DNA of 64,000 nt from Amphiscolops sp. MND2022 (Eukaryota): contig OZ076409.1 of assembly GCA_964187785.1 (NCBI GenBank), forward strand, positions 20,214,001 to 20,278,000, read 5' to 3'. Below the pieces are notes generated by a model that was not told where the DNA came from, did no database searches, and saw only the letters and a program-made list of their open reading frames with translations. Every line of letters starts with the position of its first letter. The stretch's first letter is position 1. Made by a program: the position numbers and the translations under genes. Shown here in pieces: positions 2,179 to 52,659 of the stretch.

Positions 2179-2380
2179 CTATCGGGCTGTGGTTTGTTGG
2201 GCACTAGTCATGGGTTCCATGTGACACAGGGGACACCACTGGATACCATCCGAGTGTCTGGAATCGGCCTTGTGCTTACATGAAGGACACACCCAGAAAG
2301 ACCAGTTGAATATGGGTCTCCCAGTGGCCACACACACTGGATACCGAGCATTGCACTGATCATTTTCACACTGCTTTGAC
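2179..2380 (-). CDS. WDR35: WDR35 coding exon 24 (terminal)
   Basis: SKQCENDQC...CVATGRPIF...WVCPSCKH...CPLCH...stop. Confidence 0.93.
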
Positions 2381-5300
2381 CTGCAATCCAATTTCCAAAT
2401 GAACATTTTAGTCTTTTTTAGTCAATTTTTAGTCGGCGCCTTTTCATTTACAATTACAGTGACTAGTTTTTTTTCGCCAGACAACAGAATGTATGCGTAG
2501 TGGACATTTTTTACAGAACTACTAAACTACTGGACCGGCAAGCGGAAACGCATCTAAGTGCAAAGGGTCCTCCCTTTGCACGAACTCAATTTTAACGCAA
2601 GATACAAAGCCGGACGGGACTATAGGGCCCCCCATTTAATTTTAATGTCTCCAAAGGGCAATCAATGTTTTTGATACTTTGCAACAAACTGGACTTTCAA
2701 AAAGCCTAAAGGGTCCCGCTTTCACAATTTTAAAAACTTTGCGCTTTTTGAGCCTTAGATATAGCGCCGACTTTATACGTTCCCGTCACTTAGCTAGTTG
2801 GAAATTTTCTTACCATTTATAAAGGCTGGCTTCTCCACAGTTCAAACAGGTATCTCGAGCGAGACTGGCTTTGCTTTTAGGTGGATGCCTGAAAAAATTC
2901 AAAGCAAATCCCTGTAGTACTGATTGAGAAAGCAGAAAGTTGCATGCAAATTTCTCCAGCTAATGTTTCACAAAGCAGCATGTATTTGTTAGCTCAATTT
3001 CAAGAAAGTTTGTTCGTGAATGGACACAAAAGCAATATTTTGAAGCAAATAAAACCTAGAAAGAACACTTTGCATGAAGCGAACGAAAGGGCTTTGTCAC
3101 CTTATAAAAATAGACTCGGCCAACTGTTCAAACTCTTCTTTCTCGTCCTTGGCTGACACTTCCTCCAACTTGACGAACGCTTTGGATGCGATGTCGAAGC
3201 TGCGGCATCTAATGGCACTCAGTGCCAGAAGAGAGTAAATGGCGATCGGGTCCAAGTAGTCTTCGTAATCAACCAACTGCATGCTAGTCCACATTGCCGC
3301 TTCCGATTTTTCTGAATTACATCTCGATAATTTTCACAAATTGAATAAAAAGAATCGATTAAATTAGTCGGTCACACCATTATGACATGACGGATGCCAA
3401 TGACGGTTAGCTTCTAAATTGGGCGAAAAAGCGAATCGAAACTTTGTCATCATTTCCATCTTGGGATTTTCATGGTAATGAAGCGTGGTCAATTCAAATT
3501 GAGCATGCATTGACATAATATTGCCAAGATGAAAATGATACACATTTTCGAATCTTTTTTCACCCAATTTAAAAATTTAACCGTCACTCGTATCCATTGT
3601 TTGATGAATATTCATGATACAAAAATTCCAAAGACATCACAAGATCGGATTTAGAATCCAGCTTATTTCAGTAAGATCACACTGATGTACTTATTCAACC
3701 ATTTTCAACAGTTGTGAGTAAACTGACCTGCGTAGAACTGACGCTGTGCCAGAACGTAGAAGTGGAAAGCCTCGGCGCCTCTCCACGCATTGTCGATTAT
3801 ACGGGAGTCAGTGGCCGAATAGGAGCTGTCGTCGTCGAGAAGACCCGACAAGGCCTGCAACAAAACAGAATCAAGACTATTGATCTCAAAGACGTAGAAA
3901 ACTTTATGTAAGTACAACTTTGATACAGAAACGACCCCGAAAATGGAGAAAAAATTTCTTGCAACACAGGAATCTCAATATACTTTAAATATTTGCTCTA
4001 ATATAAGACATCCTACGAATATAACGCGCACCATTGCTTAATTGCCGAAAACACTGAGTATTGCGAGATAATTAACTAAACGAGCAATGGAAAATCTTAT
4101 CCTATTTTCTGTTTAAGTGAACTCGATAACCTAATATTGAAACATTAAACTCAAACTGTTAGTAGAGTTTTCGACGGATGTCTCTAGCTGTCGAATGCAT
4201 AGACCAAAGAAGAAACGTAAGATAATCTTGTTCACAAGACGTAGGTTGGCACATAGCACACCGCCAATATAAGATGTTTTGAAATCATGAAGAAGGTAGA
4301 CAGTAGTTTGAGTAGTAGCAACAAAATTCTCACATCTTTGTTCTTAGATCGCATGTTAGAGGAGCCGCCCATCGATCGCTCTCGTTGCATTTCCACCAAC
4401 TTGCCCGCCAGCACGTAGATCTTCTTTATTCTCAACGGGTTACTCTTCTTTGTGGTCTCCTCTTTCGCAATCTGAACAATGCTCTCTTTAAAACTTGAAC
4501 TCGTATTTCGCCATTCTTCAGTGAATTAAACCAGAACTTCTCTTTGCGTGAAATATTTCTCGAAAAAATCTTGATTCATTCTGGAATTAAATTATCCATC
4601 TTCACTACTATGTAAATAAGAAGTTATAGGAAAAGTCACCCATAGTCACTCACAGAAAAAAGTCTATGACAAGACAAGTATTGATGGAACAATTTATTTG
4701 ATTTCAGCGATGATTCTATATTGCTTGTATGGTATGTTTTGGCCTCCCTTCTTACGGGGCGCTCCGCCTCGCTCCTGCATTTAGGGCACTAAAGGTACAA
4801 TACTGTAAGGAAAGAATTGAACCTTTAATTGTAATAAATACCTTGGACTGCATGTAAAGAAAGATGGCATATTACATGTGATTTCTTTCAATCTATATTT
4901 GACTCATAAATTTAGGGAAGTGGAAAAACAAATCACATGTTTAAGATAATGGATTAAGTTGTCTCAATTACCAGTTTCTGTTGATAATAAATTTATCGGA
5001 AACAAGTCTAAAACAGAAAACTCAATCCCCAATCTTTGCAAAAAATAGCTGTCTCACGTGTTAAATAGTCAATGCATTGAAATTATCGAAAACCCCTTTT
5101 CAAAAATTTTATAATACCAATTATCTTGATCAGTGTTCGGAAATAATATATTGCAAAAGATTTGATAGTAATAATTACTAACAATATATTATTGGTTTCC
5201 AAATACCTAGACAATAATATATTGCAATAAATATATTATATTGGTTTAATAGTCCTTTAAATACATGCATTCGTTTAGTTTACATCGACTAGAAGCGCAA

Positions 5301-17300: not shown

Positions 17301-20300
17301 AAAATTTTCTAAAAGTTGATTTTCGCTTAAGCTCAGTGCGTAGTTGTTACTGCTTATTACATATTCTATATTCTGCTTATTACATATTCTACATTCTCTT
17401 CTACAAACTTCTGGCTCGCTGTCCCGGATGATGTACATCCGAGTCTTTTCCATCAGCGCCAGAAGAGTAGGGTTGTCTTTGGACCAACAAACGTCCCAAA
17501 CATCTTTTCGCTCTAGATCCAGTTGCTTGCCAAGAACTTCATTTCCAGCAGCATCCACGCTCGTTGCCTCCTAAATAGCAATCGTAACACACTACAAAAT
17601 TATCGTTTCAACTCATGTTGAAAAGTCAATCGGGGTAATTTTAAACCCTCGTTAATTATGCTGAGTCACAAGCTGAAAATCTTGGTCTGGCAAATACTAA
17701 TTGCACCGATCCAAAAAAAACCCAAATCATCCAATATTGACAAAATTTTTAGTCGGCGCTTCATGAAGTGAAACGCGACTATTATAGTAACTCCTTTTTC
17801 AGTCGGCGCTTCATGAAGTGAAACGCGACTATTATAGTGACTTTTTTCAATCCACACGAACTGATCAAAATAGTTCTTGAAAGTTCTACAAAATATTATT
17901 GCACCAAATTTCACCATTTGCCCTAGCGAACTGAACCAAAAAGGTTTTTACTGTTTCCCCGCGTAACATACCATACCGGGCGAGACCAAAGGGTCCCCCC
18001 TTTCAATTTTTCGGCACTGCGACTCTTTCGGAAATTTTTTTCCCAAAGGGTCCCCCCTTTCAGTTTTTTTCGGCATTGTGAGACTTTTTTTCTAAAATTT
18101 TTTCCTCTCCAAAGGGTCCCCCCTTCAGTTTCTTTGATATTTTACAACAGAATGGGTGTTGAAAATCCCAAAGGGTCCCCCCTTTCAGTTTTTCGGCATT
18201 GAGACTTCGAAAATTTGTTTTTTCTACAAAGGGTCACCCCTTCAACTGCGACAAAAATGTTGACAATTTCGGAAGTGTCCCCCCCCCTTTTAGCGCGTCA
18301 GGGGCTCGCGCTAGAGGGCCCCGGCGCGCCACTCGGTCCATTTTTTTGGTTTTTCGATTTTCGAGTACTGTAAATTGACACTTGGAAGTCTTTTTGCTAT
18401 TTTTGAGCCTTGGATATGGCGCCGACTTGGGCCGGTCCCGGCTTGTTATCAATCCACACGAATTGACCAAAATAGTTCTACGAAATTTTTTTGATGTCAA
18501 ATTGAACCATTTGGTCTAGCGAACTGAACCAAAAAGATTTTTTCCTGTTTTTTTGCGTAACATAGAGTACCGGGCAAGACTAAAGGGTCCTCCCTTTCGT
18601 TTTTTTTCGGCATTGGGAGACTTTTTTCTCGAAAAAAAAAATTTTCCCCAGAAGGTCCCCCTTCATTTTTTTGATGTTTTGCTACAATGGATTTTAAAAA
18701 ATCCGAAAGGGTCACCCCTTTTAGCGTCAATTTGATCCAACTTTTGGGCTTTTCGAGTACTGTAAAAGAATACTGAGAACTTTGAATTCCTTGTGCTATT
18801 TTTGGGCCTTAGATATGTCGCCGGCTTATGCCGTTCCCGGCTTGTTTAAAATGAGGTATAGCAAGGGATGAGTTCATAATTTTAATTTTGCAGCTAAGTA
18901 TTATCAAAATATAGTATACCCTTCTTTGCTGTGTCATGTCAATAGATGTCAGCCACCACTAGGTTTCGCTCTTTCACAGGGGTAAAGATCGCAATTGTAT
19001 CCTAATTCATGAAAATGACTTTTCGCCATTTGAAATGAATTTCAAAAAACGGTCAATAAAATTGCATTCGATGAAAAACCCTGTATGTTGACATGAGCGT
19101 TCACTAATTGTTCGAAAATTTTTACTTTTGGCCTCAATTATCCTATCCCAGAAACACATCCCGCTGAAATTTTAGCTTTTCTACAGCTATTTAGAGTCCG
19201 AACTCTAAATTTACTTTTTCATTCCCTCAAAATGATATACAAAATGAACAATGATTTTCATTCCTGAAACATTTTGATTCATCGAGGCCTTTGTTTAAAG
19301 TATTCCTTGACGAAAAAGTATGCTAGTAACAAATTCAATTGAATTCTTGCTATCAGGCCCACGAAAACATTCCTTGTAGAAAAAGACATTTTTGGCTATT
19401 TTGAGACAATTTCACGACACTTCAAAAAATTACACCTGAACTTCCTTTTCAGTGGAAAATTTTGTAAGATCGATGTCTTGCTCAAACCTTGTTCACAGTA
19501 AAACCAAAAGGGACCTTTGATTGAATAGGAAAATGTTCCGGAAGTCGCACAATGCCGAAAAATCAAAGGGAGACAGTCTTATTCGAAAGTGCTAAAATAT
19601 TAAGATCCTAGTGCGAATAAAACTCCGTCCTCTAACTTCAGAAGCCAACACCTCAACCACTGGGCGAATGCTATGAGAAATTTATCACCATTTTTCGAGT
19701 TTAAACCAGGGAGTATCGTTGAATGGTGGTCTTCAATCATTATGTTCATAAACTTTCGAGCTGGTAACTGTCGGTAACTTTTTACGATATACGAATTAAA
19801 TATACGAAGATACCATATTTAGAGTTGAACAATTGGTTCAGGTAAATTTGACCAAATCTGACTCCGAGAAAATGTTTTGTACTTACGGGGAAACAATTAG
19901 ACCCGTTCCGTCTTGTCATACAACTTCGTAAATACAACCTCGCTATGAAAATGCTGCCAAGGCTATAAGGGTTGCTTTTTATTCACTTCGAAGCGACGAA
20001 AAAGTACCAAAAGAAATCCTGAAAGACCTTAGTTCCAGTTACAATTAAGCTGTACCATATACGAGAGTCCGTTTTTCGACACTGATCTTTATATCACTGA
20101 CAGTTCCCATTTCTTCAGCACGGAACGCTAATGCTACTTCAACCGATAGACAATCACCTTAGTCATTTTACAAACATCTACAATGAAGCCTTTCGATTGT
20201 ATGACTTTTCTAATACAAAACCATGCTCCGTGTACTAATAATTCTTGAAAAGCGGATTAACAAACTTCCGTTATTTCAGCTTAAAACTTGAAGCTAGGCC

Positions 20301-23300
20301 AAATATTCACCTAAAAACTTTCGAGCTTGAGGTATCAATTCGTAGACATTTAAATCTGGTTTATGCTATAGCTGCATTCCGCTATGATTGATCTGTTAAA
20401 ATTAACTAAAAAAACTCGGACCTTTTAAATCTTTACTCGGTACTAACTGTCAAAAAGATGACAATAGTTATCACATTCTTGGTAATTTATAAGACTTGAT
20501 ATATTTATGAGTACTATAAACACAATTTGGTTAAAAGTAAAATTAATCCAATGAAAATGTATGATGGCTCAATTTGCATTTCTCCGTCGATGAATAATTC
20601 CGATCGCTTCTTTCGAACCAAGGAGCCGGCAACAGTGGTCTCAATACATTCAGGGTCATCTTGCGAAGATGCATCTAGACAGTCTTTCTTCTGTTCTGAC
20701 TGATTACCCGTTGAAATGGCTTCGGGGACAATTTGCATAGTCTTCTGATTGTCATGGAAAGTTAATACCTTTCTGGCTGTTCTTTTCTGATGGACATCCA
20801 CAACACAGCAAGAAAAGTCACATAGTTCGTCATAAAAACCATCACCAGGAGTACAGTCACCCTGTCCGGCTTTCAAGGCACAGTCAACGCCCGAATCCTC
20901 GTTGGTCAATCCGTAGCATTCACTGGGTGCGTCAGTCGAAGACGGCCAGAAGTCTGGTTTGTTGCAGAAAAGACAAACAGTTCGTTGACAAAGAATCTCA
21001 CATAGGTTGTCATCATCGCACTGATCGAAGCAATTGATTGTGCAGTACTGATAGCCAGCTTCATCCAGGAATCTTAGACATGGATTGCCGTAAAAAGTGC
21101 CATCCCACAGACAGCAAGTCTTATCACAATCAGAGGTTTCCTCACAATAGCCCATCACAAATGTCTCTACCAAGCAAGTTTCGTACGGCAAGATATCCAC
21201 TTCATCATCGCAGCTTTCGCATATGTCAACTTCAGGCTCTTCGGTGTCTTCTGTATCATGAGCAAAGTTGAACATGCAACAACTGAATTCACACAAGTGC
21301 TGAAACTCCCAAACATTGCAAAGGTTTTCGTTCATTACTGCAACACAAAAATCTGGGCTGGCTTCATCTTCGTGACAAAGGCATTCAATTATTCCTTCTG
21401 AACTCACAGATTCAGTGACAGTGGTAGTTTTTACAGTAGTTGGGGTGGTCGGTTCAGCTGTAGTTGTTTCGAACAGATCCATGCAACACGAGTATTGACA
21501 CTTCACTTCCTCGCTTAGGGGCTCTTTACATCTTCCCTTCTCAACTCGCTTTTCACAGTTCGCTGAAACATCAGTGTACTCGCTGCACAATTGGTACGTA
21601 GTAGTCTCAGTAGTCTTTTCGTCAGTTTGGGTTTGAGTTGTAACCGAAGTAGTTTTGCTTGTTGTTTCCAATTCACCGGCCTCGCAACAACTTCTTTGGC
21701 ACTTTTTAGCCGTTCCAGGTTCAGAACATCTGCCCAAAAGAACTCGCTGATAACAAACTGCCTCTGACAATTTGTCAGAGTATTCAAGGCAAGGAGTTGG
21801 ATCGACCAAACAGCAAGCTAATTCGCATTTAGCTCGGAAGCTGTCCTTTTCGCACTTTTCCTCATCTTCCTGAAGACGATCTCGGCAGAAGTCGTCTCCA
21901 TTTTTGTTTTCGAATCCCTGGTCAAAGCAGAAGCTGTCATAAGACGTAGTGCTAGATTCAGTAGTAGATGTAGAGTGGCTAGTAGAAGGAATGTCGTCAG
22001 TGAAGCCTGATGTAGTTGAACTGGACGAAATGGTCGGTAAAGTGCTTGAAAAAATGTCTCTCCGTTTTCGCGAATTTTGAACTTTATTGCTCAAATGGTA
22101 CTCAATGCAACATGCTAATGGACATTCCTTCTCATGAGCAATTTCACTACATTGATGCTCGGAGAAAGCCTTGTCATAACAGTACTTGGCGCCCTTCTCA
22201 TCTTCCAGGTGACTACAGGGTTTCTGTTTATGCGGGTTCACATGGCCGGATTTCTCTTCGCAGCAAGTCAAGGCGCAATGTTCAGCATGCTCGTAACAAC
22301 TTCCTGATTCCTTGACGACTGAACACGTTTTATGGCCCCACATATCTACTTCATTTGCGCAAGTCTGAGAAGGTTCAGCAATATCCTCTGTCAACTCGCA
22401 GCAATGCTTCTCGCATCCTTTAGATCGTTGGCGGCACTCTTCAATTGTAAACTTCGAGCAATCATCCAATAAATTCTCCAAATTGTCGCAGTTCTGAAAC
22501 AATTTAGAATAGAAGCAAATACATATATACATACAAGTACTTCAATAAGTACAACTAAAATGCAAAAATCGGATTGGCGAATACATGATTCCAAACTTCA
22601 TGAATCGGATGGGTTTGAACTTGTCATTTATTCGACTTGAAATCACAATTTGAACTATGATTTCGAAATAGAATTTCGATATTTTAGCACATTGATGCCT
22701 TACTTACCAACTGAGTTCGTTTCAGAACTTTTCCCTCCAATTTCTTTGGATAAAGACCACAGACAAAAGGTCTTTCGCCGATTCCACACATGGTAGGAAT
22801 GAGCATTGATCCATTGCTTGAAACACTCAAAATAGAGCAGCTGCCTTCGCCTGCTTCCTAGAACAAGATTTAACCAAGAAAATTTTCAGGGAACTACACA
22901 CACGAAACGCTTCACCAGATATCCATGTTTAAAGAGTAATTAGGGATTGCAACTTTGTATCACGCAAGCGACAAAAAAAATTGAAACCATACGATCGATT
23001 TGATATTTCGTCGAAGTGAACTTTGAAGTAAACTAACCATGTCAATAGTTCCAGAGTCGTGAATGAGATTATAGAATTCATCCAAAAACTTGACTGGTCC
23101 AATCCAATAATTTGTATCTGGCGTTGAAATGCTCAATCTGTCAATGTCCATGTGGGGCAAGATTTCGAGTAAAGTGCCATCTTTGGTTGAGTCAGAGAAA
23201 CCACGGCAGAGGTTAAGGGCATCATCATGACTGGCTGGCCATTTTGAATTCAACACCATATAACAGAACTTGTCATCGTAGCTCTCCCAAAAAGCAGGGC

Positions 23301-26300
23301 AATCGAATCCAGCAGAATATTCCAGAATTATTAATAAGGAAATCGGAAGTAGGAAGTTGATTAGATGAAGCCTATGCATTTGTGGTTATTGCTGTGACTG
23401 AATATTACAATAGCTAATGATGGTCAAATAATAATGCAACTAAAAAACAATGATAACGTCTGTCTTTTAAGGTCAGTGTTTATGACTATGTTTCTGATCT
23501 GAATATTAATTAAGTATTCTGTCTGAGCAAGTCATTGTACCAGTTACGGACCAGCCAATGAAAACAAAAAAGCGTAGACAAAACTTACCAAATCCCACAT
23601 TGTTAACACACCAGATATGTCTAGAATGCAGCAACGACTGAAACGAAGAAAAGGTCATATGTTTTGAAACGCCAACTTTTTACTGGGTGAACCGAAAAAC
23701 GGAACGCATAAAAATGTATGAGCTTCCTAACTTCAAATATTTGTCAACAAACGTTTCAAACTGTCATTTTTTTAAAAGCGAAACAGTTTTCACACTATTT
23801 TTCCCTGAACGTTCGAACAATCCCCAGTTGAAAATGGTATTACGTAACGAGAGCTCCGCTTTACATTAACAGAAAAAGGTTTTCAGTGCCTTGTTTACTA
23901 GGTGAACCAAAAAAACGGAACGTACAAAAATTTGCGTCTTCAGAATTGTATTATTTGTAAACAAAAAAATGAAAATCGTTCAATTTTTCTGTCAGTCATT
24001 TAGAATGAAGCTCCTGTTACGTAATCACATCTTCAACTACGGATGGTTCAAACCTTCAGAAAAAGTGTATACGTCTTGACCAGTCATTTCATTCTCACTT
24101 TTATTGTGTGAAGTTCTTTCGCTTCGAAGAAAAGTTGCCAACTTGAATGATTGAGAGCAGCGTTCAAAGATGTTGTGAAACTTTTGTTTTTAAATATTTG
24201 AAGCTTTGAGAGATCGAAAATTTTTGTACGTTCCGTTTTTTTTTTGGTTCACCTAGTACAAAGATTACGACTTTAAAGACGCAAATTTTTATCCGATTCG
24301 TTTTTTATTCACCTAGCAAACTTGTTTGGTGGAAACAACATTCATCGTAGACATTCTATCAATTTTAAGATTAAACTGGTCAGATTTGTTGAAACAATGT
24401 AAATAGTTCAAACCAACACTATGAAAGTGAATGAAAACAGCGTACTACAAATTTTCAAGCTTTTGACGGATTCGTAAAACCACATTTCAATGGTCGTTCC
24501 AGTAATTATCAGTTCGCTTAGCCAACACAATCAATTTCAAAACCTAAAACCCTGACTTTTATCCACAAACACAATTCCTAGAATTAGAAACAATGACAAA
24601 AATGAAATATATACATTTCAGAAAAAAATGGCTCCATTATCTTAACTTCGTTTGCAAGAAAAATATTTGTAATATTGAGAGAAGTTATGGAATATTATGG
24701 AAGTTTAGGAGGAAGTTCGAGCGTGTTGATGCAAAAAGAATCTGCCTGATTTTGCTGTGCATCTCGCAACACTAAAGACACGAAATTTAGCTAAAATACT
24801 TGTAAAAAAAATTGATGTCTTTGTGAACTCTCCGAGTGCAAATGAAGATGATAAATTAAACAAACTAACGTTGAGTTGCAATTGATGTAGAGACTGTAAG
24901 CTCTAATATCAGCTTGTATCTTGTTCTGAAAGACTAGTTTGGGCAGAGAATAGCGTTGAATGATCCCAGATGCACGGCCTATGAGCAGAATCGAGTCAGA
25001 AGCTGCAATAGCACAGATGGGGTCTTGAGATTCTTTATCGGCTTTTGACCACGAATCAAACGTCACCACATTAGCAGCTGATGCTGATGAAGACTGTTTT
25101 GAAGAGGCATCCGTCACTGCATCGATGTGGATTAGCCTGAAACGATTCATATTTCAGCTTTCACAGAGACTTAATTTATACTTATCCTGTGTAATCAAGA
25201 ATATTAAGCTTTTCTTCAATGGTATGATTCAGAAGCACATTCACATTCACACAGACACAATGCCCAATCATGAAGAACACCGATGGTAGAAGTTAAAGCG
25301 GGACTGTTAAAGGCAATGGCATGAACATTACAGAAAAGGTATTCTACCGTCATCTCAGTGATTGGTTAGCCATGATAGGCGTTTTAAAGAGCATATTACC
25401 TGTGGCAGAGCAACTGCCGCCAATATTACGTAACCCCTTTAAAGAATCTCAAGAACTAAGAGGTCGTGTACTAACACAACCGTACTTGAAAAGAATTTGA
25501 AAAGAATCATTGCCACATGGTTAAATTTAAAATACAGTTACTCCAAATTCTATTAGTTGTATCTGAGTATCGAGACAGCTGCAACATTACCATCACACAC
25601 AGGATGGTTCAACACAAGTGTTTGACCCTAAATTAGGGCAATTTTAATTGTCTTTCGGTAGAGATGAACGCACTTGGATATTCAGAAGCGTTATATAACT
25701 GATGCAGAAAAGTTCGCAAGGATTTGATTACCAGAGAACTCAACACAAGAAAACTCAACACAAGAAAACTCAACACAGAAAACTCAACACAGAAAACTCA
25801 ACACATTTCAAGCAGATATCAATCGTGATATATATTATACATGCATACTCCTTGTTCGTTCTGCTCATAATTTATACATTTGACACAATTTTTCTAAAAG
25901 ATTTATGTTTCTGTTTGAACTTTTCCTATCGTTTTGTTTCATGGCTTGGACCAAAATAAACAATGTTTCAATGTAAAAAACAGTTTGATATAAGAAAAAT
26001 AAAATTTCAAGTTGTCGGGGAAATAATTGAATAAAAATGGTAAAAATTTCGGGATTTCATTTTAATGGGGAATTCACTTTACGTATCAATGATGATTTAC
26101 TGAGATACGGACAGATGGTGAATAAAATTGCTAATTAACTAACTTTTCAAATGATCTGGAGCTGGCATTTTAGATATTGCTTCATCTTGTAATTCCATCG
26201 AAAATTTTCCCATTATTTGACCAGGGAATTCACTTGACCTTGATTTGTCATAATCTTTCATTTTTGAATAGGAAATGTGAGCGCTCGCTTCATCAGGATC

Positions 26301-29300
26301 ACAGGAATGATTGTGGATGTATTTTGACTTAAGTATCGCCTTTCGTCTGAATGGTTGCAGGGTATTTTTTTTGAAGTATTCCTTACATTGTCAATCTTGC
26401 TAAGTGTAAAGGAAATTATACAGCTTTATATGTGTTTGAAATGAGTCGCAATTGTGATTAAGTGTAGACGGAAATGAAATTATACGGATTAAACAATTTT
26501 GGGAATTAAACTCAATTGAGGTGTTAACTTAACTGAATTAAATGTGTTGAGTTTCTGTGTTGAGTTTTCTGTTTTTTTTTTTTACTACGTGTTGAGTTTT
26601 CCGTGTTGAGTTTTCATGTGTTGAGTTTTACGTACATCATCAATTTAATCAGATATCAGTTATCCGACCTTCAAATTTGACAAGTTTTGCGTATTTTGAA
26701 AGCATCACGAAATACGCGAAGAAAAACTTTCATTGTTGAATAGTTTGGTTAGCTCTTTAGTTTCATGGTGAAAATCAGGAAACGTCATTGCAATATTCAA
26801 AAAAGTATACGTAAAGCAAACCTTTCTTTCAGTTCTTTTTTGCTGGCCTGCAGATTGATATCGGCGGACATGAGTTTGATTGGATCCGTGAACTGCCACA
26901 CGTAGTAAACATCTTTGTTGGCTGCGATGATTAAACTTGACGTCATGCACAAGAAAGTGGGTTCTAAAAACGACAAAAACGTTGACGATATTAGTGAGGA
27001 TGAGGGCCGGTACAGTCCTGTGATAGAAGAATGGAACCCCTAATTGATATCAATGTTTGGAACACTCAATTTTTCTGCGCATATCTCTCAAAGATCAAGT
27101 CTTAAAGAGAAATGACTGATAAAAATTTATTGGAATTTGATCTAGTTTACATTCGTGTTTTTAGTCGGAGCATTTTAACAAAATGAGCCCGACAATTACA
27201 GTGGCGAGTTTTTTTCTTTTTTTCGTCAGATAACAGAATGTATGCGTGGTGGACACTTTTTACAGAACTAATAAACTACTGGACAGGCAAACGGAAACGC
27301 ATCTAAGTTAGTGCAAAGGGTCACCCTTTCATTTACTCCCTTTTTAACGTAAGGCACAAAACCAGACGAGACTATAGGGTTTGAGTTTTTTCGGCACTGT
27401 GCGACTTTTTTTCGAAATTTTGTTTGTCTCCAAAGGGTCCCCCCTTCAAATTTTTTGATATTTTACAGCAAATTGAAGTTTCAAAAAGCCCAAAGGGTCT
27501 CCCCTTTCAAGTTTTTCGGCACTATGAGACTGGCTCAAAATTTTTATTTTTCGATTTTTTTTAAAAAATCCAAAGGGTCCCCCTTCTACAATTTCAAAAA
27601 GTTTGAGCTTTTTGAGACTTAGATATGGCACCGACTTTAGACGTTCCCGTCTTGTTCAATCTTCCGATTCATCGCTGTCCACTGATTGCACTATCAAACT
27701 TTGAGGCACTTAGTATTTACACGTTTCATTGAAGATATTTATTTTCTTGCCGACAATTAGCTGTTTCATTTTTTCTTTGTCTACGTTAGCGCAATTTTCA
27801 AGATTCTACGTATTCTTAACCCTAAATAGTCTAGCGGTACTTTAAAGCAGCCTTCCTTTTTCAACTTCTGACCCGTACTGCCAGTGGCCCATATTCTCCA
27901 GTACATTTTTAATTCAACTATTTCTTGGTACCCTGTTTGGTCTGAACGGCACAATTATTAGCAATAGTGAATTTTTTTTCAAAGCTGCGAAAAATGGGTT
28001 TCTCTCGCAAAAAAATACTTTTCCAAAATTACTTATGGCAAAATCCAGTTTTCTCAAACGCCCTTAGCCCATGAAAAAAAGCAACCAAATACCTTTCCAC
28101 AACAAGACCCTGTGCAGTAAAACCAAAGGTATGCTGTTGTTACTGCAAGTCCCGCGCAGCGTCGGTACCGGAAAGAGAAACTAAAATTCTAAAGAATGGG
28201 CGCGCGGCGACAGAGGCTCGCTCACATGACCAAAACTAAAGCCCAGTACCTTTCAAACGCGCTATACTTCATTTCTCTGGTATGCGTAGTTGTGGAGATA
28301 TTAATGATTGAAATTTTTTAGCCCGATTTTGTGAAAATTTGTAAAAACGCCCAGGTCAATTAGGGTTAACCCCAATCGACCTGGGCGTTTTTTAAAATTT
28401 TCGAAAAATTTTCCAAAAAAATTTCAATCATCGATATCTCCACAACTACGCGTACCAGAGGAACGAACTATAGCGCGTTTGAAAGGTCTGATATTGGGCT
28501 TTCATTTTGGTCAGGTGAGCCCCTGTCGCCGCGCGCCCCTTCCTTCAGAATTTTAGTCTCTTTTTCCGGTACCGCCGCTTCGCGGCAGTTCCGCACTTCG
28601 TGCGGCCCGCTGCGCGAGGGCTTGTAGTAACAACAGAATATTATAGGGGTTTGTTGCACTAGGACTTGTTGTGGAAGGGTATGTGGTTGGTTTTTTCTAT
28701 TGATCAAAGACTTTTGAGAAAACAGCATTTCGTCAAAATCTGAATTTTGAGAAAATATAAGTCTTTTCTTGTGCAAAAAACCCATTTTTCTCAGCTTTGG
28801 AGATATATTCCCTTTTTCTAATGCTTGTGCCATTCAAACCAATCTAGGTACCAATTACTTGTTGAAAAAAACCGTGCTAGAGAAAATGGGCTACTGGCAA
28901 AAGGAATCAGAATTTGGAAGAAAAGGTAGGCTGCTTTAAAGCATCACTAGGTTCATTGGGGTTAACATCTAGAAATTGAACTGACTATAAACTGTCATAA
29001 ACAGCTGGAATTTATCTTTTCACAGCAGGGGGTGTCGAAAAACTTAGTTTTGACCATATCAAAAGACTTTTGTTTCCAACTTGTTAACCCCAATCGACCT
29101 GGGTGTTTTTAAAAATTTTCGAAAAATTTTCCAAAAAAATTTCAATCATCGATATCTCCACAACTACGCGTACCAGAGGAACGAACTATAGCGCGTTTGA
29201 AAGGTCTGATATTGGGCTTTCATTTTGGTCAGGTGAGCCCCTGTCGCCGCGCGCCCCTTCTTCCTTCAGAATTTTAGTCTCTTTTTCCGGTACCGCCGCT

Positions 29301-32300
29301 TCGCGGCAGTTCCGCACTTCGTGCGGCCCGCTGCGCGGGGGCTTGTTGTAACAACAGAATATTATAGGGGTTTGTTGCACTAGGACTTGTTGTGGAAGGG
29401 TATGTGGTTGGTTTTTTCTATTGATCAAAGACTTTTGAGAAAACAGCATTTCGTCAAAATCTGAATTTTGAGAAAATATAAGTCTTTTCTTGTGCAAAAA
29501 ACCCATTTTTCTCAGCTTTGGAGATATATTCCCTTTTTCTAATGCTTGTGCCATTCAAACCAATCTAGGTACCAATTACTTGTTGAAAAAAACCGTGCTA
29601 GAGAAAATGGGCTACTGGCAAAAGGAATCAGAATTTGGAAGAAAAGGTAGGCTGCTTTAAAGCATCACTAGGTTCATTGGGGTTAAAGAACTCCGATTAT
29701 GGGCTATTTATGCGATTTTAGAGACGCGTACGGAACTACGGTCCCTGATGGTGCCAAGGCTGTCACAATTGGAGGAATGTAAACTAGACAAAAATCCGAG
29801 AAACTGTTTTTATCATATTTTAGAAAATTGACAGTTTTCAAGAAATTCGCAAAACCATTAGGCTATCTAAAATTAATTATCAAACAGTGGTTGGATTCTT
29901 TTATCACAGGACTGTATCTTTCTTCACAGATTAAAATCAAGTACACGGATCAATGAAGCAGGATTAAGCCGCAGTCAACTAGAAGAATGAGCTCAACACT
30001 CTTATAAAATCAACAAGACGAGAACGTCTAAAGTCTGCGCCATATCTAAGGCTCAAAAAGCGCAAAACAATTTTTTGGAAAAAAACTTGATTTTTGAAAA
30101 AATTTCTTCTTTCAAAAAAAGTCGCATAGTGCCGAAAAATGTAAAAGGGGGACCCTTCTGGATTTATTAACATACATTCCGTTGCAAAGTATCAAAAATC
30201 GCGAAGGGGGGACCCTTTGGGGACATTAAAAAATTTTCGAAAAAAAGTCGCACAGTGCCAAAAAAAATCCAAAGGGGGGACCCTTTAGGCACGTCCGGTT
30301 TTGTGGGTTTCCTTGAAAAAGTAAATAAAAAGTAAAAAACCAAAGGGGGACCCTTTGGAATAACATATGCGTTTCCGGGGTATTCGTTTAGTTGAAGATA
30401 CTGAACGTTAGCGTTCGTCGCTTCGAGTCTGTCTTAAATAAAAAAACGAGTGACTGTAATAGTCGGGCTCTTTTCTTAAGAAAAGTGCCGACTAAAAAGG
30501 ATTGAATGAAGTATATCAGAAGCAATGCCCAACAAGTGCAAGAATCAACTGAAAACGCATCTCATCTCAGAAAGTTGAGAAATCGATTTGAAAAAATCCA
30601 GAAACGCTAAAACGAACCAACCGAAGTAGATAAACTTGGATTCCAGTGGAGTTCCGATGGAATTGTACAGAACAAGCATTATGGTGTTGCTCGAAGGAAG
30701 TTGTTTCTTGACAACACAACAGTATTCTCCATGGGCTGCAATCAGCAGCAAAAGTGTTGAGCTGGGCAAGCTCTTCTTGTGCAATTCCATATTTTTCACG
30801 TCCCAAAAGGCAATCTGAGCGATTCCAGCTGCATCCGTGAACTCGTATACTATAGTGTTACTGCAGTAGCCCCACTGAAACATACATCAAAATTATTTAT
30901 TTTCGCTCTCATTTCCATATGGGAAAGCAAAATAACTAACGCGTTTTCAAAATTTTCTAAAATTTGCCATGTTGCAATGTCAACCAAATTGAAGAGGTTC
31001 ACTCATAGACTATGACTCATAGAATTCTACTGGCTTGAACTTAGCTTCGTTCAATATGTATGTGTAGAGATTTTTGGGTTTTTTGGTTGACCCCAAAAAG
31101 ACTCCAAATCGCCATTTTTTAGACTTTTTATGCTATTTTTGTTTCAACCCCAATTAACCTGGCTATGCTTCTAAGCAGCATACCTTTTTTCCACTAAACT
31201 CTTAAAAAATGGGTGTGCGGAGACAAGGGATCACCAAACAAACATGAAAGCCTAGTACCAGATATTTCAAAAGTGTTGATAGTCGGCGTTTTCGAAAAAA
31301 AAGCACGACTCTTACAGTGGCTAGTTTTTTTCGTCAGTTCAACGCGATCGGTCCACTTTTTTTGTTCATTTGTTCAACTTCTTGGCCGAGAGGTTAACCC
31401 GGATTTTCTGGGGTCTGAGAAGCAGGAGAGTGTGGGTTCGAGTCTCGCACTAAACCACAAATTATTTATGCTTCCAAAAGTAGAGGGGAGACCAAAGGGT
31501 TCCCCTATTGCGTTTTTTTCGGCACTATTCGACATTTTTTTCGAAAATTTTTGAATTCTATCAAAGGGTACCCCCTTGAATTTTTTGAAGTTTTCAATTT
31601 GTAAAAAACGTTTAATAAGCCTAAAGGGTATCGTTTTAGGTTTTTCGGCAATGAGACTTTTTTTTACCAAATACGTTTTTTCAAAAAATTTGCAAAAATG
31701 CCCAGGTCAATAAACTGGTTAAACGTCAATCCATTAAAGGTCAAAGGGGACATGACTAAAACGAACACGTCATCGACATTTCCATTTTTCCGAAACTGGT
31801 ATTTGCGAAATTGATTTCATTATGGGATGCAGACAAAACACAAGAACGTTTACGTTTTGATTTGAATTCAATAACCTTGTAATTCGGTCGAATATTTGCA
31901 AAATAGATGTGTGAATCCACAGCCAGTGCAATTCGGAGGCCTCCGCCTTCCCACGAACAACTTTCTATGCTGTTTCCTGGAACTCTCAGACTTCTGAGAT
32001 GCTGAAAAACAAGGGCTACATAAAATGCACACTCAAACACTTTTGGGTTGTGCAAAAAGGTATCATTTTACAAGTTTCAAGACCTTAACAGAAAAATTTG
32101 ATTCATTATCATTCTCACCTAAAAGCAATTACGTCATCGAAATCAAATAGTTTTTTGGTCCAAATACACGACTAACTTATCTTTCCGATACTAAATTTCT
32201 TAGCAGTCAAGAGATATTGATGCTCTATATTTGATTCATCTGAATCTAGGAAATGGCTTACCTCTCCGTTATGGGAAAAGAATTGAATGACGTTGTTTTT

Positions 32301-40327: not shown

Positions 40328-41003
40328 CTATCTGAAAAAAGTGTACGTCAATAAAAAATCGATTTCGAGTTCATTCAAACCTGAGAGCTCGAAAACTTTA
40401 CAATGGTGATTGCACTTCACAGTACTCTACGCTCCTCCTTTGTCGGGGTTCCCACATAACTTCGGACTGTAAAAACATAGATCTTCCTTCATAATTCTAA
40501 CAATTGCGTCCAGGTGTTCATTCAACGTAATCGTCTTTTTTAAAGCATTTTCAGCACAAATAGCTTCTTAGTCTCTTTGGGTGGTAAGAATGAAAACAGG
40601 TGGGCGGTTCGTATCCTAACCTGGGTGACCTTTCAACTGGAGCTTTTACATTGCAAAAGAACTTGTACACTGACTTGATGGGTAGGAGAATCTTTGCACT
40701 GGAGAACACCAACTGAAGAACCACTTATTCAGTAAACCGGTTTCTATTATTAGTCTTTATCAACTATTGCGCTTATGACTGATGTCATTTCGCTCAAGCG
40801 GCACTTTTCGGAAAACAATCTGGCGCCAAAACTATTTGAATTTTGGATACAATTTGGATAAAACATTACTCCAGCATAACAACTGTTTCGTTCTAACAGT
40901 TTGATGGAAGTGGGCTTTGAATTCTACCTGATGGGACTTTTGTCCACTTGAACGTCCAACATATGAGCCATGATTGCACTTATTCGAATATTCCGTCAGT
41001 TTC

Positions 41004-42436: not shown

Positions 42437-43327
42437 TCAAAGTTTTTTGGAATTGCCAGGGTAATCAGTGGAGTTTGGTGAACTATGGCGTTTCCGTGTT
42501 CGAAAGCATGTTTCACATAAATCATGGCTCAGCTTTCCATCACGAGGAATGAAAGGAGATTTGCATATGACGCATTTTTTTTCAGCAAGTTTTTCCGAAT
42601 ATTCTGGGTGATACATACGCATGTGCAGAACACGGGGCCCGTTTTTATCAAAAAGCTGATCACAGAAGAGACATCTCTGAGTGAAACTACTTTCGTCGCC
42701 AGGTTTGTGAGCAACTTCATGGTTTTCTAGAGATCCTTCATCCATGAAGGCTTTCCTGCAAATTCGGCAATTAAAAAGATTATGCTTGTTGTGGGTAAAG
42801 TGCCAGTGTTTTTCGTACTTTGTTTCCGAGGCCAGTACGGCAGGGCAATCCGGACACTGGAATAAAGTTGCACCTTCGAAAGGTTTGCACTCATGTTTGT
42901 TCAGCATGTAGACACTATCAAAAGATCGATCACAGTCTTTGCACACTTGAATGTTCATCATTTCTTCGTGCTTTATTTGCGAATGCAATACATAGGCCCT
43001 GTAACTAGCGAAGTTCTTGCCACATCTCTGACAGAAGTAATTTTCGGTTCTATTGTCTACTTTGGAGAAAGGTATTGATCCGTTTTCATGCGCTTCTTTG
43101 TGTTGAATATAATTCGAATGCTGGGTAAAAACTTTCATACAATACTCGCAAACCCGATGATACTGCTCAAACTTCTCCGGATGTGATTGCATTGCATGTT
43201 GCTCTTTGGAAGCCAGAGTTTTGAACCTTTTGCCACACTCTTCGCATTGGAATGGTTTCCCATACCCATGACTGGATGTACTAGCATATGCGTCATGCTC
43301 TCCGTAGTAATATCCCTCGGACGCCAT
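42437..43327 (-). CDS. C2H2 zinc-finger protein (7 C2H2/C2HC fingers plus a C-terminal CxxC...CxxC), single coding exon visible
   Basis: Fingers such as CEECGKRF..H....H, CEYCMKVF..HKEAH, CRICRKAF..HEVAH. ATG at 43327; an upstream ttttag acceptor at 43345-46 means an additional upstream exon is possible. Confidence 0.88.
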   Translation of the reverse strand: MASEGYYYGEHDAYASTSSHGYGKPFQCEECGKRFKTLASKEQHAMQSHPEKFEQYHRVCEYCMKVFTQHSNYIQHKEAHENGSIPFSKVDNRTENYFCQRCGKNFASYRAYVLHSQIKHEEMMNIQVCKDCDRSFDSVYMLNKHECKPFEGATLFQCPDCPAVLASETKYEKHWHFTHNKHNLFNCRICRKAFMDEGSLENHEVAHKPGDESSFTQRCLFCDQLFDKNGPRVLHMRMYHPEYSEKLAEKKCVICKSPFIPRDGKLSHDLCETCFRTRKRHSSPNSTDYPGNSKKL

Positions 43328-43796
43328 CAAAGTAACATTTGCATCTAAAAACTGTCCAACAGAATGTCAGAGTGTTCTCGTTTGCTTATCCTATCAAAAA
43401 TTGAGCGTAGATGGTTCTATTCGAGAAACTCTTTAAAGCGAATGCGGGACTAAACAGCCGGTTTTCAGGACCAGACGAAAAGGCTGATTTGTAAAACGGG
43501 AAAAACAGTCGATTTGAGACGAAGACAGAAAAATGAAAAGGTGAAAATTACCCTTTGTAGTCAAATTTACAGAAAAAGTTGCCGCTGTTAAGCAAAATTC
43601 AATTGCCTGCGTTTAGAAATATATGTATTAAAGTACCTTGAAGACCAAAGACATGTAACCGAAAGTTGAAATGTCCAATATAAGAAAACTATTCCACTTT
43701 GTGCAATTTAGCTTTGAATACGCATTTGTCAAAAAACAACAGGCTATTTTCTGCTTCCGGGCTCAGCGCTTGTTTTTAGCCGGTGCTTTTGCTAGT

Positions 43797-47662: not shown

Positions 47663-50600
47663 TCAGCTCAAATTAGCTTCAGCTGGAGAAAAAGGAGGCG
47701 GTTGTCTGTTAATTTCTTCTAATGCAGCAAACATGGGCAGCGAAGACAACCCGGACTTGTTCAAAAACACGAGGAAGCTGACCAACAAATGACGTAACTT
47801 GTCTTTGGCGTTCATCACACATAAACTGTAGCGTAACTTGAGGTACTCTATCAAGTTTCTGTCTTTTGCTACTGTGCATTCTGTCATGATGCGATACCTG
47901 AAACAACATTTCAGCATCACAATTTAAAAATGTCTATTGAAATGCCACATTAGAAACGATTTTAGTTTCGAAATTTATAATGAAGCAATTATTTTTGATC
48001 TTGTATAATTCGATTTTTAAAATTTTGACTCTAGAAACGCAACTGGGAATCCAGGAAGCACTATATCAAAAAATTTCGGGTCGATGAAAATTTCGAATAA
48101 TCAAATTTCGTTCAACTTTCTGATCAAGGTTTCGTCCAATCCTGGTCAACATGGCGCAATGGAGTTTGAAGATGTTGTTCTCAGTCAGCGTTTGGTTCCA
48201 AAAGAAAAGCAAATGATGAGTAAATTTTACCTGTTCACGGTATCGCCATGGGTTTGAACGATTGAGCGAATGGTGTTGAGGTTCCTTATCACCAGCAACA
48301 GAGAAAGAGGTATGGCCCTGAGAACGTTCATCACTCTCGAAAAATGATTCTCCAGGAAGGCATTCATGTGCTGCAAGTCCAGTTCAGTGACACCACCTGA
48401 AATAATAATTTAATTTGAATTTATCTGATATTAAATGACAAGAAGCACAAAACTAATACCAATCATATACCGTCATCAAATAACAGAACAGACTTCCAAA
48501 GGCATATGCCCGCTTAACGGAAGCCTGATAACAAGTAATTCATAACATATCAAAACAAAAATATGAGGAATGTCAATTTTTTTAATGATTTTTTTGATTT
48601 TTTAAAATTATTTTTTTTTGAAAAAAAGTAGGTCAGGAACCGTTTGATACTTTGCATTCAGATGTATTTCTTTACCAACAGATTAAACACACATTCGATA
48701 ATCCAGACTGAAGCAGCGAATTTTCTGATTTATATTCATCACTTTATATTGGAGTCAAACGAAAACTAAGCGCAAAAAGTACACGGTTAGAAAACGTTTA
48801 AAACTTTTCAAACACTGAAACAAGGAAGCAGCAATTTCAAAATCGCAGTTCACTCCTCCGTTGTTTTTACTGACTTCAAAACATGTCACTTTCCTAAAAG
48901 GAAGGGGATCAAACGTTCCAGGTGTCATAACATAGGAATGTATTCGAAAAAAACATCACTGTACTGATGAGCATCTCAAGATTTGGGAAACAACAAAACA
49001 AAACATTTCAATCGGTGCCCCGCTCACGGCTCAAAAAGTCTGTTAAGGACTTGGTGATGAGAAACTCTGAAAAATCCCAAAGTATAGGGAAATTTCGAAG
49101 GGGTCCTTCGGATACCTTTTAGATCTCTGGCATGAAGTCCGTAAAAATTGATCAGTCAGTGTCACGACTGTTGCCTGACAAAACACTTGGAAGGATAAGA
49201 GTCGGGCATTTTTTCTTACGAAAGGCACTGATGTCATTGATATGTCGGGAACATTTTATTACAAAAACAACAGTCTAAGTAAAGTTCAACTTTTTGATGC
49301 GCCGCTTCTGTTTGTCGTACATTTACCGCACAATAACTTACCTTTGAAGTAGGAGGAGAATGGTACGTTTGCATACCAAGGCCTCTGGAGAAGTACACCC
49401 GCCAAAATTGCAGTATCCTGCAAACCGTGAACGCCCAAATCGCTGGCATACTGCAGCATTTTATCCGTGTCGTCCAATATCATTGCCTTCCAAAATTGAC
49501 CCAAATTTCGCTGGAAAAGAACAGAGAAGTGATTTCACATCAGAAGTGATTTCACCAGAGCCTGATTCAGTTAATTAATTCTTGATCGGTTTAATTTTTT
49601 CAGCCAATTGAGGCAAACAGAATCGGAGAATTGTCAATCAAGCCTTACAAATAAACGGAGGACCCTTGAAACCTAAAATACACTATTCCTTAATTGAAAA
49701 GATCACAAAACCCAAAATTGTGAAAATTGTTGAGAATTTTTCGAAAATGCAGGAAAACAGAAACCAAAATGCTTTCTCCTGACTAAAACTATACAAAAGC
49801 TCAACGAGGGGGCCCTTCAAAAAACTCACTGTGTCGAAAAAAATTTTGACGGTCAAAGTTTGACCTAGCGTTTTCATTGAAAAAACAATGAAATTTTAAT
49901 CCTCAAGAGGATTCGAACTCGCGACCTGACGTCTGAGATTCCGCGGTACTAGTCCAGTTCTTTAATAATGAGGACATGAACCTGTCAGTTGTCGTGCTTC
50001 AAAAAAAAGTCAACACTAAAGTTGGGTATCACAGAAAGCGCTGACTAAAACGAACTGGGCAACCAAATACAATGGCCCTTTACAATGGTAACAAGCCGGG
50101 CCCAAGTCGGCGCCATATCTAAGACTCAAAAATAGCAAAATGACTTCAAAAAGTCAAAGTATTGGTGAATTGGGGACCCTTTCGTTTGAAAAGTCTCACA
50201 ATGCCAAAAAAAATTGTCGCAAAACTCAAAAAAATTGAAGGGCGGGACCCCTTTGGGGAATTTTTTTTCGAAAAAAGTCTCACAATGCCGAAAACTCTTT
50301 AGTCTCTCCCGATATTGAATGTTACGCGGAAAACAAGGAAAAAGTTTTTTCGTTCAGTTTCGTGGGCCAACAGGTACAATTTAAAATTTTGTAGAGCGTT
50401 TGGTAGAACTATTTTGGTCATTTCAGGTGTATCAAAAAAAACTGACGAAAAGCCATGACTATAGTCGACTCTTTTCTCAAGAAAAGCGCCGACTAAAAAA
50501 ATTAGCTTCCAAATGCGACTTACTTGAACTTGAGGTTCCACGTACTGATACAAGCCGTGATCGAGAAGCACCAGTTGAATATCATTGTTTGGCATTTTTC

Positions 50601-52143: not shown

Positions 52144-52659
52144 TCAATAATCTGAAAGCATATTTCAGTTCACACCTCATGATTTAGGCGATTGCATTTT
52201 GTGTAACAAACGAATAGCATCAGGTGATATGGTCTATTATCAGCTAACGGGCGAAACTATTTATCTAGCCCATTAGTATGTCTTTAGCAACTCTTTAAAC
52301 TCTATTTTAAAAATAGCATTGTCAAACTCTTGAAATTCTATCCCACATAGTACAAGCAGGAATGCAACAAACGAAATTTCAGAGTTTTTGAAACATTCCA
52401 AACCTTCAACGATTAAATAGGAGAAAGCTTTAAGGTTCCAATGAATCGAAACAGGACAACCATCTATTCATGTGCTCGAAAGACTCAGACATCGACAGTT
52501 CAAAAGGAACGAATAACCTTCGACGTATCAAACAAAACGCGACGATCGGCAATAGGATACCATATTTTGAGCTCCTCTGAAAGCAAACTAGAACTAACCT
52601 GTGATAACTAAGTCGACTAACTGCATGATTAAATGAGTTTCGAACTCGAAATGACTAAC

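What the first reader, a model, noticed from the sequence alone, without database searches (positions are those of the whole stretch)
17571..23588. Complete multi-exon gene nested on the same strand in WDR35 intron 12, starting about 210 nt after a host donor
Seen: WDR35 exon 12 (23589-23637) and exon 13 (17409-17570) bracket a 3-exon ORF of about 823 aa on the same strand, ATG at 23379. Candidate acceptors just before the ATG (tattcag, tcacag) give an immediate stop in the WDR35 frame, so it is not a WDR35 fusion. Established: nested genes are more often antisense to the host. Inference: host splicing must skip four internal splice sites and a poly(A) site; the nested promoter is tiny or overlaps exon 12, or the mRNA is processed out of the WDR35 pre-mRNA, which would tie it to ciliated cells.
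Basis: partly seen in the sequence, partly recalled or inferred. Interest (0 to 1): 0.7.

Follow-up and report, generated by a model that had tools for sequence, protein, structure and literature searches.

The report
Lectin-like gene inside cilia-gene intron
In an acoel worm, an old three-exon gene for a predicted cell-surface lectin-like protein lies inside an intron of the cilia gene WDR35 on the same strand, and it likely uses its own tiny promoter just after the host's splice site, which is an uncommon but known gene layout.

Summary
A 3-exon, 823-aa ORF lies on the host strand in the 6,018-nt intron 12 of the single WDR35 gene of an acoel worm. It is a real gene: a relative's 2,549-nt contig encodes the joined 805-aa orthologue (69% identical), RefSeq has orthologues in Convolutriloba and Symsagittifera, and two broken copies elsewhere in this genome lack intron 1 exactly. 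In Convolutriloba, orthologue and WDR35 exon 11 sit on contigs of identical length, twice, so linkage looks old; nesting there was not seen. The protein resembles a C-type lectin plus nine ShKT-like repeats, but no Pfam family is met. The genome has spliced-leader (SL) RNA arrays. The 209 nt before the ATG hold a CCAAT box with an ATCAG 61 nt on, as in this genome's histone promoters, and three acceptor-like AGs. Best reading (0.6): its own compact promoter after the host donor, perhaps with SL trimming. Rival (0.17): SL trans-splicing out of WDR35 pre-mRNA. No RNA reads were available. Multi-exon parallel nested genes are a known minority class. The scan has not reported this locus before.

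The parts
24870..25136 (-). WDR35 exon 11
   Evidence: tblastn to C. macropyga WDR35; model
23896..24258 (.). Multi-copy palindromic MITE-like insertion in WDR35 intron 11
   Evidence: inverted repeats; dozens of genome copies at 88-95% among 40 scored of 2593 candidates
23589..23637 (-). WDR35 exon 12 (49 nt), donor GTAAGT, phase 0
   Evidence: donor score 8.1 vs host median 6.5
17571..23588 (-). WDR35 intron 12 (6,018 nt) holding the nested gene
23552..23561 (+). CCAAT box (reads ATTGGCTG on the gene strand, 180 nt before the ATG); predicted promoter element
   Evidence: same orientation and core as 5 of 5 ATTGG sites before histone genes of this genome; NF-Y consensus (recalled) occurs 8 times in the 64-kb window
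23494..23498 (-). ATCAG 61 nt after the ATTGG; predicted start region; the AG just before it is also acceptor-like (score 8.1)
   Evidence: histone promoters have ATYAG at +59, +59, +62; acceptor score
23440..23459 (-). Acceptor-like site (first exonic base 23439, 60 nt before ATG); candidate SL or cis acceptor
   Evidence: score 7.8, 98th percentile of 1322 intronic AGs
23396..23417 (-). Acceptor-like site (first exonic base 23397) overlapping TCAGTC, an initiator-like hexamer (consensus recalled)
   Evidence: score 7.8; TCAGTC at 23401
23038..23379 (-). Nested gene coding exon 1: hydrophobic leader and most of the C-type-lectin-like domain
22708..22857 (-). Nested gene exon 2: end of the lectin-like domain
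   Evidence: exon 1-2 junction present without intron in L003 and L005
20514..22493 (-). Nested gene exon 3: nine 6-Cys repeats, Thr/Ser linkers, RKRR and RKKR sites, short hydrophobic tail, stop
19978..19983 (-). Nearest AATAAA, 530 nt after the stop; the true 3' end is unknown
17409..17570 (-). WDR35 exon 13
   Evidence: PF23390 over cut-off; 89% to C. macropyga WDR35

Best explanation
A conserved three-exon gene for a predicted surface-anchored lectin-like protein lies on the same strand inside WDR35 intron 12, and it is likely transcribed from its own compact promoter in the first 100 bases of that intron. [quoted passage not shown] Inferred: a CCAAT box at 23552-23561 sets a start near 23495, downstream of the host donor, so the nested pre-mRNA carries no host donor and splices and ends on its own; its 116-nt leader may be trimmed by SL trans-splicing at 23439 or 23397. 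Inferred: in WDR35 transcripts the two short nested introns, with strong donors, would be removed first, leaving exon 13 as the acceptor for exon 12, and a weak 3'-end signal would be passed.
For: Real gene: joined orthologue on a 2,549-nt Logan contig; RefSeq orthologues of 926 and 974 aa; 69-70 of 73 cysteines kept in each full-length orthologue; two intron-1-less copies in the genome. Separate product: hydrophobic N-terminus in 4 of 4 full-length sequences; every AG before the ATG leads to a stop in the host frame. Promoter: ATTGGCTG in the orientation and distance range (-180 vs -118 to -191) of this genome's H3, H2A and H2B genes; background 0.012-0.026 NF-Y consensus sites per 209 nt; ATYAG at +61 vs +59, +59, +62. 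The only upstream ATG (23535) lies before the predicted start. Sequence upstream of exon 12 is largely a recent repeat. Nested donors score 9.7 and 8.1 vs host median 6.5; no AATAAA or ATTAAA within 530 nt of the stop. Internal promoters that create an outron are described in flatworms and tunicates (PMC12582326, passages).
Against: No transcript 5' end was seen. The promoter motif was spotted after looking at TATA, Inr and DPE first, and only 3 histone promoters (two alike) define it. Genome-wide the spacing is not clearly favoured once arrays are removed: 33 vs 24 distinct sequences in the first 76 Mb of C1, counted by eye. The 14 other distinct loci read show no more downstream ORFs than 17 control loci. 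No TATA box. Three acceptor-like AGs 90-191 nt from a strong host donor (0 of 122 other intron tiles have three) could be used in cis on WDR35 transcripts and are not explained by a promoter alone. WDR35 and the neighbouring zinc-finger gene also lack an early AATAAA, so the weak-3'-end step is thin.
Confidence: 0.6

Rival explanations
1. The nested mRNA is cut out of the WDR35 pre-mRNA by SL trans-splicing at one of the unpaired acceptors, so one promoter yields either WDR35 or the lectin-like mRNA (an operon inside an intron).
For: 1,678 exact copies of the published S. roscoffensis leader in this genome, control 0; 19 of 19 array copies read are followed by GTAA. Three acceptor-like AGs in the 209 nt: shuffle P=0.002, 0 of 122 tiles reach the third-best score. 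One acceptor shown to take SL in this genome scores 9.1 on the same matrix. WDR35's own ATG has an unpaired acceptor 4 nt upstream, score 9.8. Linkage kept in Convolutriloba. Cis and trans use of the same acceptor is common in flatworms (PMC12582326, passages).
Against: A strong donor lies 90-191 nt upstream, which would favour cis-splicing (established for C. elegans; recalled). In flatworm operons cis-splicing at the resolving acceptor is very rare, and internal SL sites are mostly read as noise. No cleavage site separates the genes as in ordinary operons. The best single acceptor is unremarkable (16 of 122 tiles match it), and two of the three overlap initiator-like words. The CCAAT box is unexplained.
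Confidence: 0.17
2. The nested mRNA starts upstream (WDR35 promoter, intron 11 or exon 12) and uses the exon-12 donor in cis to one of the three acceptors, so exon 12 is a shared exon and the lectin-like ORF is reached after a stop.
For: The resulting introns (90, 149, 191 nt) match this gene's short introns (69-260 nt); donor and acceptors score well; shared-exon loci are known (cholinergic locus, PMC4769160 passages; splicing details recalled).
Against: From the WDR35 promoter this gives a 568-aa truncation plus 3-24 residues ahead of two introns, a likely decay target and a poor template for a second ORF. The 640 nt before exon 12 are mostly repeat-derived. Exon 12 contains an ATG that would open a short upstream ORF (sequence).
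Confidence: 0.15
3. The nested exons act mainly as alternative exons of WDR35, giving in-frame chimeric proteins, or the arrangement is an assembly artefact.
For: Host intron 12 and both nested introns are phase 0; exon 12 to nested exon 3 is open for 659 aa.
Against: Stand-alone full-length orthologues with their own hydrophobic leader; WDR35 single-copy, collinear and gap-free; intron 2 is absent from the Convolutriloba genomic ORF P0056, so the strongest fusion acceptor is not conserved; co-location repeated in Convolutriloba.
Confidence: 0.05

Closest known systems
Parallel (same-strand) nested intronic genes of Drosophila, human and the ctenophore Hormiphora (PMC3814207 and PMC8527503, passages read)
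   Same: A whole gene inside one host intron on the host strand, unrelated in function. In Drosophila 71.27% of nested genes are antisense and 72.53% of same-strand ones have one exon, so multi-exon parallel cases are about 8% of nested genes (my arithmetic). Hormiphora, which also has SL trans-splicing, has many parallel nested genes.
   Different: Only 209 nt separate host donor and ATG; the host is a conserved single-copy cilia gene, whereas Drosophila hosts of intron-bearing parallel genes are less often essential; linkage appears old here.
Cholinergic locus, unc-17/VAChT with cha-1/ChAT (PMC4769160 passages: 'operon-like', conserved; nesting, shared first exon and complementary control elements recalled from Mathews et al. 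2015, not held)
   Same: Same-strand nested gene in an animal with SL trans-splicing; two mRNAs could come from one pre-mRNA.
   Different: Here the nest is a coding intron halfway through the host, not the first intron after a shared non-coding exon; no functional link between products is known; no convincing complementary arms flank the nested gene.
SL-resolved operons and internal-promoter outrons of flatworms and tunicates (PMC12582326 passages; S. roscoffensis SL, 10.1101/2022.08.27.505549 passages)
   Same: Same leader sequence as S. roscoffensis; unpaired acceptors close to the ATG.
   Different: Operon genes follow an upstream 3' end; this gene follows an upstream splice donor.
C-type lectin domain (PF00059) and ShKT domain (PF01549) proteins
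   Same: Language-model neighbours are Lectin_C (0.92) for residues 20-160 and ShK (0.85) for 345-440; six-cysteine repeats with Thr-rich linkers.
   Different: No Pfam match at E up to 10; repeats end C-x3-CC rather than the C-x3-C-x2-C recalled for ShKT; family found only in acoel-like records (5 hits among 1.84 billion).

Membership tests
Parallel nested intronic gene | Whole coding sequence within one host intron | tested here: met
Parallel nested intronic gene | Same strand as host | tested here: met
Parallel nested intronic gene | Nested gene makes its own spliced mRNA | tested here: met
   indirect: joined orthologue on a 2,549-nt contig; intron-1-less copies in this genome; no reads from this species
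Parallel nested intronic gene | Host mRNA joins the flanking exons | tested here: inconclusive
   in-frame and contiguous with C. macropyga RefSeq WDR35; junction reads not available
SL-resolved operon | [quoted passage not shown] | tested here: met
SL-resolved operon | Unpaired acceptor before the downstream ATG | tested here: met
   three sites at the 98th percentile
SL-resolved operon | Downstream mRNA carries SL | not testable with these tools
   no RNA run was listed; the processed copies begin 20 nt after the ATG
SL-resolved operon | No promoter of its own | tested here: inconclusive
   CCAAT box and ATYAG present but motif pair weakly predictive
SL-resolved operon | Upstream gene's 3' end lies just before the trans-splice site | tested here: not met
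   a splice donor, not a 3' end, lies upstream
Cholinergic-type shared-exon locus | Shared non-coding first exon, nest in first intron (recalled) | tested here: not met
   nest is coding intron 12 of 23
Cholinergic-type shared-exon locus | Complementary elements flanking the nested gene (recalled) | tested here: not met
   172 inverted pairs, best spanning pair 30 nt at 73% with one arm in intron 11; chance level
C-type lectin domain PF00059 | Profile score over Pfam cut-off | tested here: not met
   0 families for exon 1, exon 2 and 3 full-length orthologues
C-type lectin domain PF00059 | Fold | tested here: inconclusive
   Atlas features 0.92, 10 of 10 best hits in family, 153 shared features; models pLDDT 39 and 33; Foldseek no match
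ShKT domain PF01549 | Profile score over Pfam cut-off | tested here: not met
ShKT domain PF01549 | Six-cysteine unit of about 35-40 residues | tested here: inconclusive
   9 units per protein (8-9 in orthologues) but ending C-x3-CC; Atlas 0.85, a lead only

The most novel reading that the evidence does not exclude
An operon inside an intron: the acoel makes the lectin-like mRNA by SL trans-splicing onto WDR35 pre-mRNA (or onto the excised intron), so a cis-versus-trans choice just after exon 12 sets the ratio of a ciliary transport protein to a surface-coat protein, and the arrangement has been kept across convolutid acoels.
Probability: 0.17. Interest if true: 0.72.

Novelty: new member of a known kind. 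Interest (0 to 1): 0.35.

Why it matters
On the likely reading it is a tidy example of a known minority layout. It shows how little sequence a promoter may need (about 100 nt directly behind a host donor), and it flags an unstudied acoel-restricted surface protein family. If the SL reading were right, it would be a new way to run two unrelated genes from one transcript, and a natural test of how a nearby donor competes with trans-splicing. One 5'-end experiment separates the two.

Tried and rejected
RNA evidence: no RNA holder listed for 20400-23700; no evidence either way. Relatives' DNA: 17 pattern hits in JGI metagenomes, 0 confirmed. A processed copy with the 5' leader or SL: the two copies begin 20 nt after the ATG and no other copy of 23700-23360 was found. 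Loop-out pairing around the nested gene: nothing above chance. TATA box and DPE: absent by eye (consensus recalled). Genome-wide support for the CCAAT-ATYAG spacing: raw 5,700 vs 555 is driven by histone arrays and one tandem repeat; 37 vs 24 distinct sequences in 76 Mb (33 vs 24 without 3 histone promoters and this locus), counted by eye among the first 100 rows of each list; 15 of 30 and 17 of 30 fetched loci were read after dropping repeats of the same family, with no difference in downstream ORFs. The idea that an integrated SL end is reused as an acceptor: it scores -5.7. Structure: both models low confidence; no PDB sequence match or Foldseek match. That this genome is S. roscoffensis or C. 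macropyga: their orthologues match only this locus at 39% and 45%. Literature: the orthologues' LOC and XP ids, 0 papers; acoel, nested gene, WDR35 and intronic gene gave 15 papers, none on this locus by title or abstract; 'alternative operon' 0; unc-17, cha-1, nested, complementary, splicing 0. Supplements of the S. roscoffensis preprint (SL sites per gene) were not seen and could bear on the SL question.
Full report
Observation. On the minus strand the nested ORF has exons 23379-23038, 22857-22708 and 22493-20514, with GT-AG introns of 180 and 214 nt, and gives 823 aa (one search had exon 2 off by one base). WDR35 runs from 40327 to about 2180 in 24 exons; my model is 960 identical of 1147 aligned residues to C. 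macropyga WDR35, with only the last junction unresolved. Exons 12 and 13 join in frame across a 6,018-nt intron. WDR35 exon 14 has one match in the 1.07-Gb genome, and no N run falls inside the gene.

Organism. The best WDR35 hit is the acoel Convolutriloba macropyga (89% over exon 13; next 57-78%). Orthologues of the nested gene from C. macropyga and Symsagittifera roscoffensis match only this locus, at 45% and 39%, so this is another acoel.

The nested gene is real. P0002, on a 2,549-nt Logan contig, is an 805-aa protein with all three exons joined, 547 of 788 aligned residues identical; a contig that short holding the joined CDS is most simply an mRNA assembly (inference). RefSeq models of 926 and 974 aa exist in the two named acoels. 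69-70 of 73 cysteines are kept in each. Genomic read-through ORFs end at the same place in three species, so intron 1 is conserved; intron 2 is absent in the Convolutriloba ORF P0056. Two broken copies on C6 and C2, 97% alike over 2.2 kb and about 88% like the parent, join exon 1 to exon 2 exactly, which shows past splicing in this lineage. They begin 20 nt after the ATG and so say nothing on the 5' end. A search of 1.84 billion representatives gave 5 hits.

Age of the arrangement. In Convolutriloba the orthologue (P0056; P0062, P0065) and a WDR35 exon-11 ORF (P0071; P0078) lie on ENA contigs of identical length, 267,851 and 710,164 nt, and the two RefSeq proteins on contigs of 62,789,662 nt. 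Equal length is an indirect identifier; even on one chromosome, sharing a 268-kb piece by chance is about 0.4%. Order and strand were not visible, so nesting there is inferred. By hand, the tail of P0070 (another species) reads in a shifted frame as exon 12 followed by GTAA, so the intron position looks shared.

Protein. Hydrophobic N-terminus (no signal-peptide predictor was run), a domain whose language-model neighbours are C-type lectins (0.92), nine units C-x9-13-C-x7-10-C-x5-10-C-x3-CC with Thr/Ser linkers whose neighbours are ShKT domains (0.85, a lead only), two dibasic sites and a short hydrophobic tail. Pfam, PDB sequence search and folding gave nothing usable. A secreted, membrane- or GPI-anchored coat or recognition protein is the inference.

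Spliced leader. The S. roscoffensis preprint reports SL trans-splicing of 30.2% of genes (10.1101/2022.08.27.505549, passages; the journal version PMC9911081 seen as a listing only). Its leader occurs 1,678 times exactly in this genome, control 0. 19 of 19 array copies read continue GTAA, as SL RNA genes do; 403 copies are followed by another base. So a short distance to the host donor is no paradox: the 5' end can be set by a promoter or by SL.

The 209 nt. An acceptor matrix from the 23 WDR35 introns scores three AGs (first exonic bases 23498, 23439, 23397) at 8.1, 7.8 and 7.8, the 98th percentile of 1,322 intronic AGs. Three such sites occur in 0.2% of 2,000 shuffles and 0 of 122 other intron tiles; the cut-off was chosen after seeing the scores, and at lower cut-offs 1-8 of 122 tiles match; the best single site is matched by 16 of 122. 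One acceptor shown to take SL here scores 9.1. H3, H2A and H2B have no TATA box but carry ATTGGCYG (5 of 5 ATTGG sites) 118-191 nt before the ATG, and the proximal one is followed by ATYAG at +62, +59 and +59. The nested gene has ATTGGCTG 180 nt before its ATG and ATCAG at +61. A full CCAAT consensus (recalled) is expected 0.012-0.026 times per 209 nt. Against this, the pair is only weakly enriched genome-wide once arrays are removed (33 vs 24 distinct sequences by eye), and other hits do not visibly precede genes. The 3' half of intron 11 is a recent multi-copy repeat, which makes a promoter just upstream of exon 12 less likely.

How the host copes (inferred). The nested introns are short, with donors at 9.7 and 8.1 against a host median of 6.5, so they would be removed first, taking both internal acceptors with them. 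No AATAAA or ATTAAA lies within 530 nt of the stop, but WDR35 and the zinc-finger gene show gaps of 233 and 386 nt, so this is weak. No flanking complementary arms were found.

Comparison. In Drosophila 71.27% of nested genes are antisense, and 72.53% of same-strand ones are single-exon (PMC3814207, passages). Hormiphora has 2,357 nested genes, many parallel, and SL on at least 56% of reads (PMC8527503, passages). A glass sponge has 2,432 nested genes and a leader (PMC10282587, passages). In flatworms cis and trans share acceptors, internal promoters make outrons, and cis-splicing is rare at operon-resolving sites (PMC12582326, passages). The cholinergic locus is the closest shared-transcript case (PMC4769160, passages; details recalled, paper not held), but it nests in a first intron. 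This locus meets the tests for a parallel nested gene and fails or leaves open those for an operon or a shared-exon locus. I found no paper on it in four searches, in a library that lacks most subscription journals.

Verdict. Real, old, and a new member of a known minority class. Own compact promoter 0.6; SL processing from WDR35 pre-mRNA 0.17; cis use of exon 12 0.15; fusion or artefact 0.05. Interest 0.35.

Noticed in passing
G000, loci L048-L077 (30 of 403 places): 403 exact spliced-leader copies are not followed by the SL-RNA donor. They head several unrelated repeat families; by eye 18 of 30 read begin ORFs with PHD-like cysteine patterns or a motif recalled from LINE ORF1 (not scanned). 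Retroelements here seem to be copied from SL-capped RNA. One paper search found no report of this in acoels.
   Followed up: partly
L067 and L068 vs L048 family: Two copies carry the leader joined 27 nt further in, at an internal TTTTCAG of the L048 family: genomic record of re-trans-splicing of a retroelement RNA.
   Followed up: partly
window 40327-40351 (-): WDR35's ATG has a strong unpaired acceptor 4 nt upstream (score 9.8), so the host is probably SL trans-spliced itself.
   Followed up: no
L003:1450-1847 and L005:1445-1838: Processed, broken 400-nt copies of the nested gene's 5' part, sharing a 49-nt deletion, inside a duplicated unit of at least 2.2 kb; the carrier element was not identified.
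   Followed up: partly
L006 (G000:C6:59679378-59679584): Distant relative of the cysteine-repeat region elsewhere in the genome, similar to P0059.
   Followed up: no
L079-L108 (3.63-kb histone repeat): H3, H2A and H2B promoters lack a TATA box and use paired reverse CCAAT boxes with ATYAG about 60 nt after the proximal one.
   Followed up: partly
window 47666-53405 (-): Two tandem ORF sets resembling ABC1/ADCK kinases (family label recalled from motifs such as HADPHPGN) upstream of a single-exon C2H2 zinc-finger gene at 42440-43366, all on the WDR35 strand.
   Followed up: no
window 28335-29554: Two near-identical ORF-like copies about 720 nt apart inside WDR35 intron 9.
   Followed up: no
window 57645-63916 (+): Decayed LTR-retrotransposon ORFs (gypsy-like, then BEL/Pao-like by recalled motifs).
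   Followed up: no
window 14473 and 2179-2814 (-): WDR35 exon 17 uses a weak AAG acceptor (leave-one-out score -0.8), and the last junction does not fit the C. macropyga model, suggesting a missed small exon.
   Followed up: no
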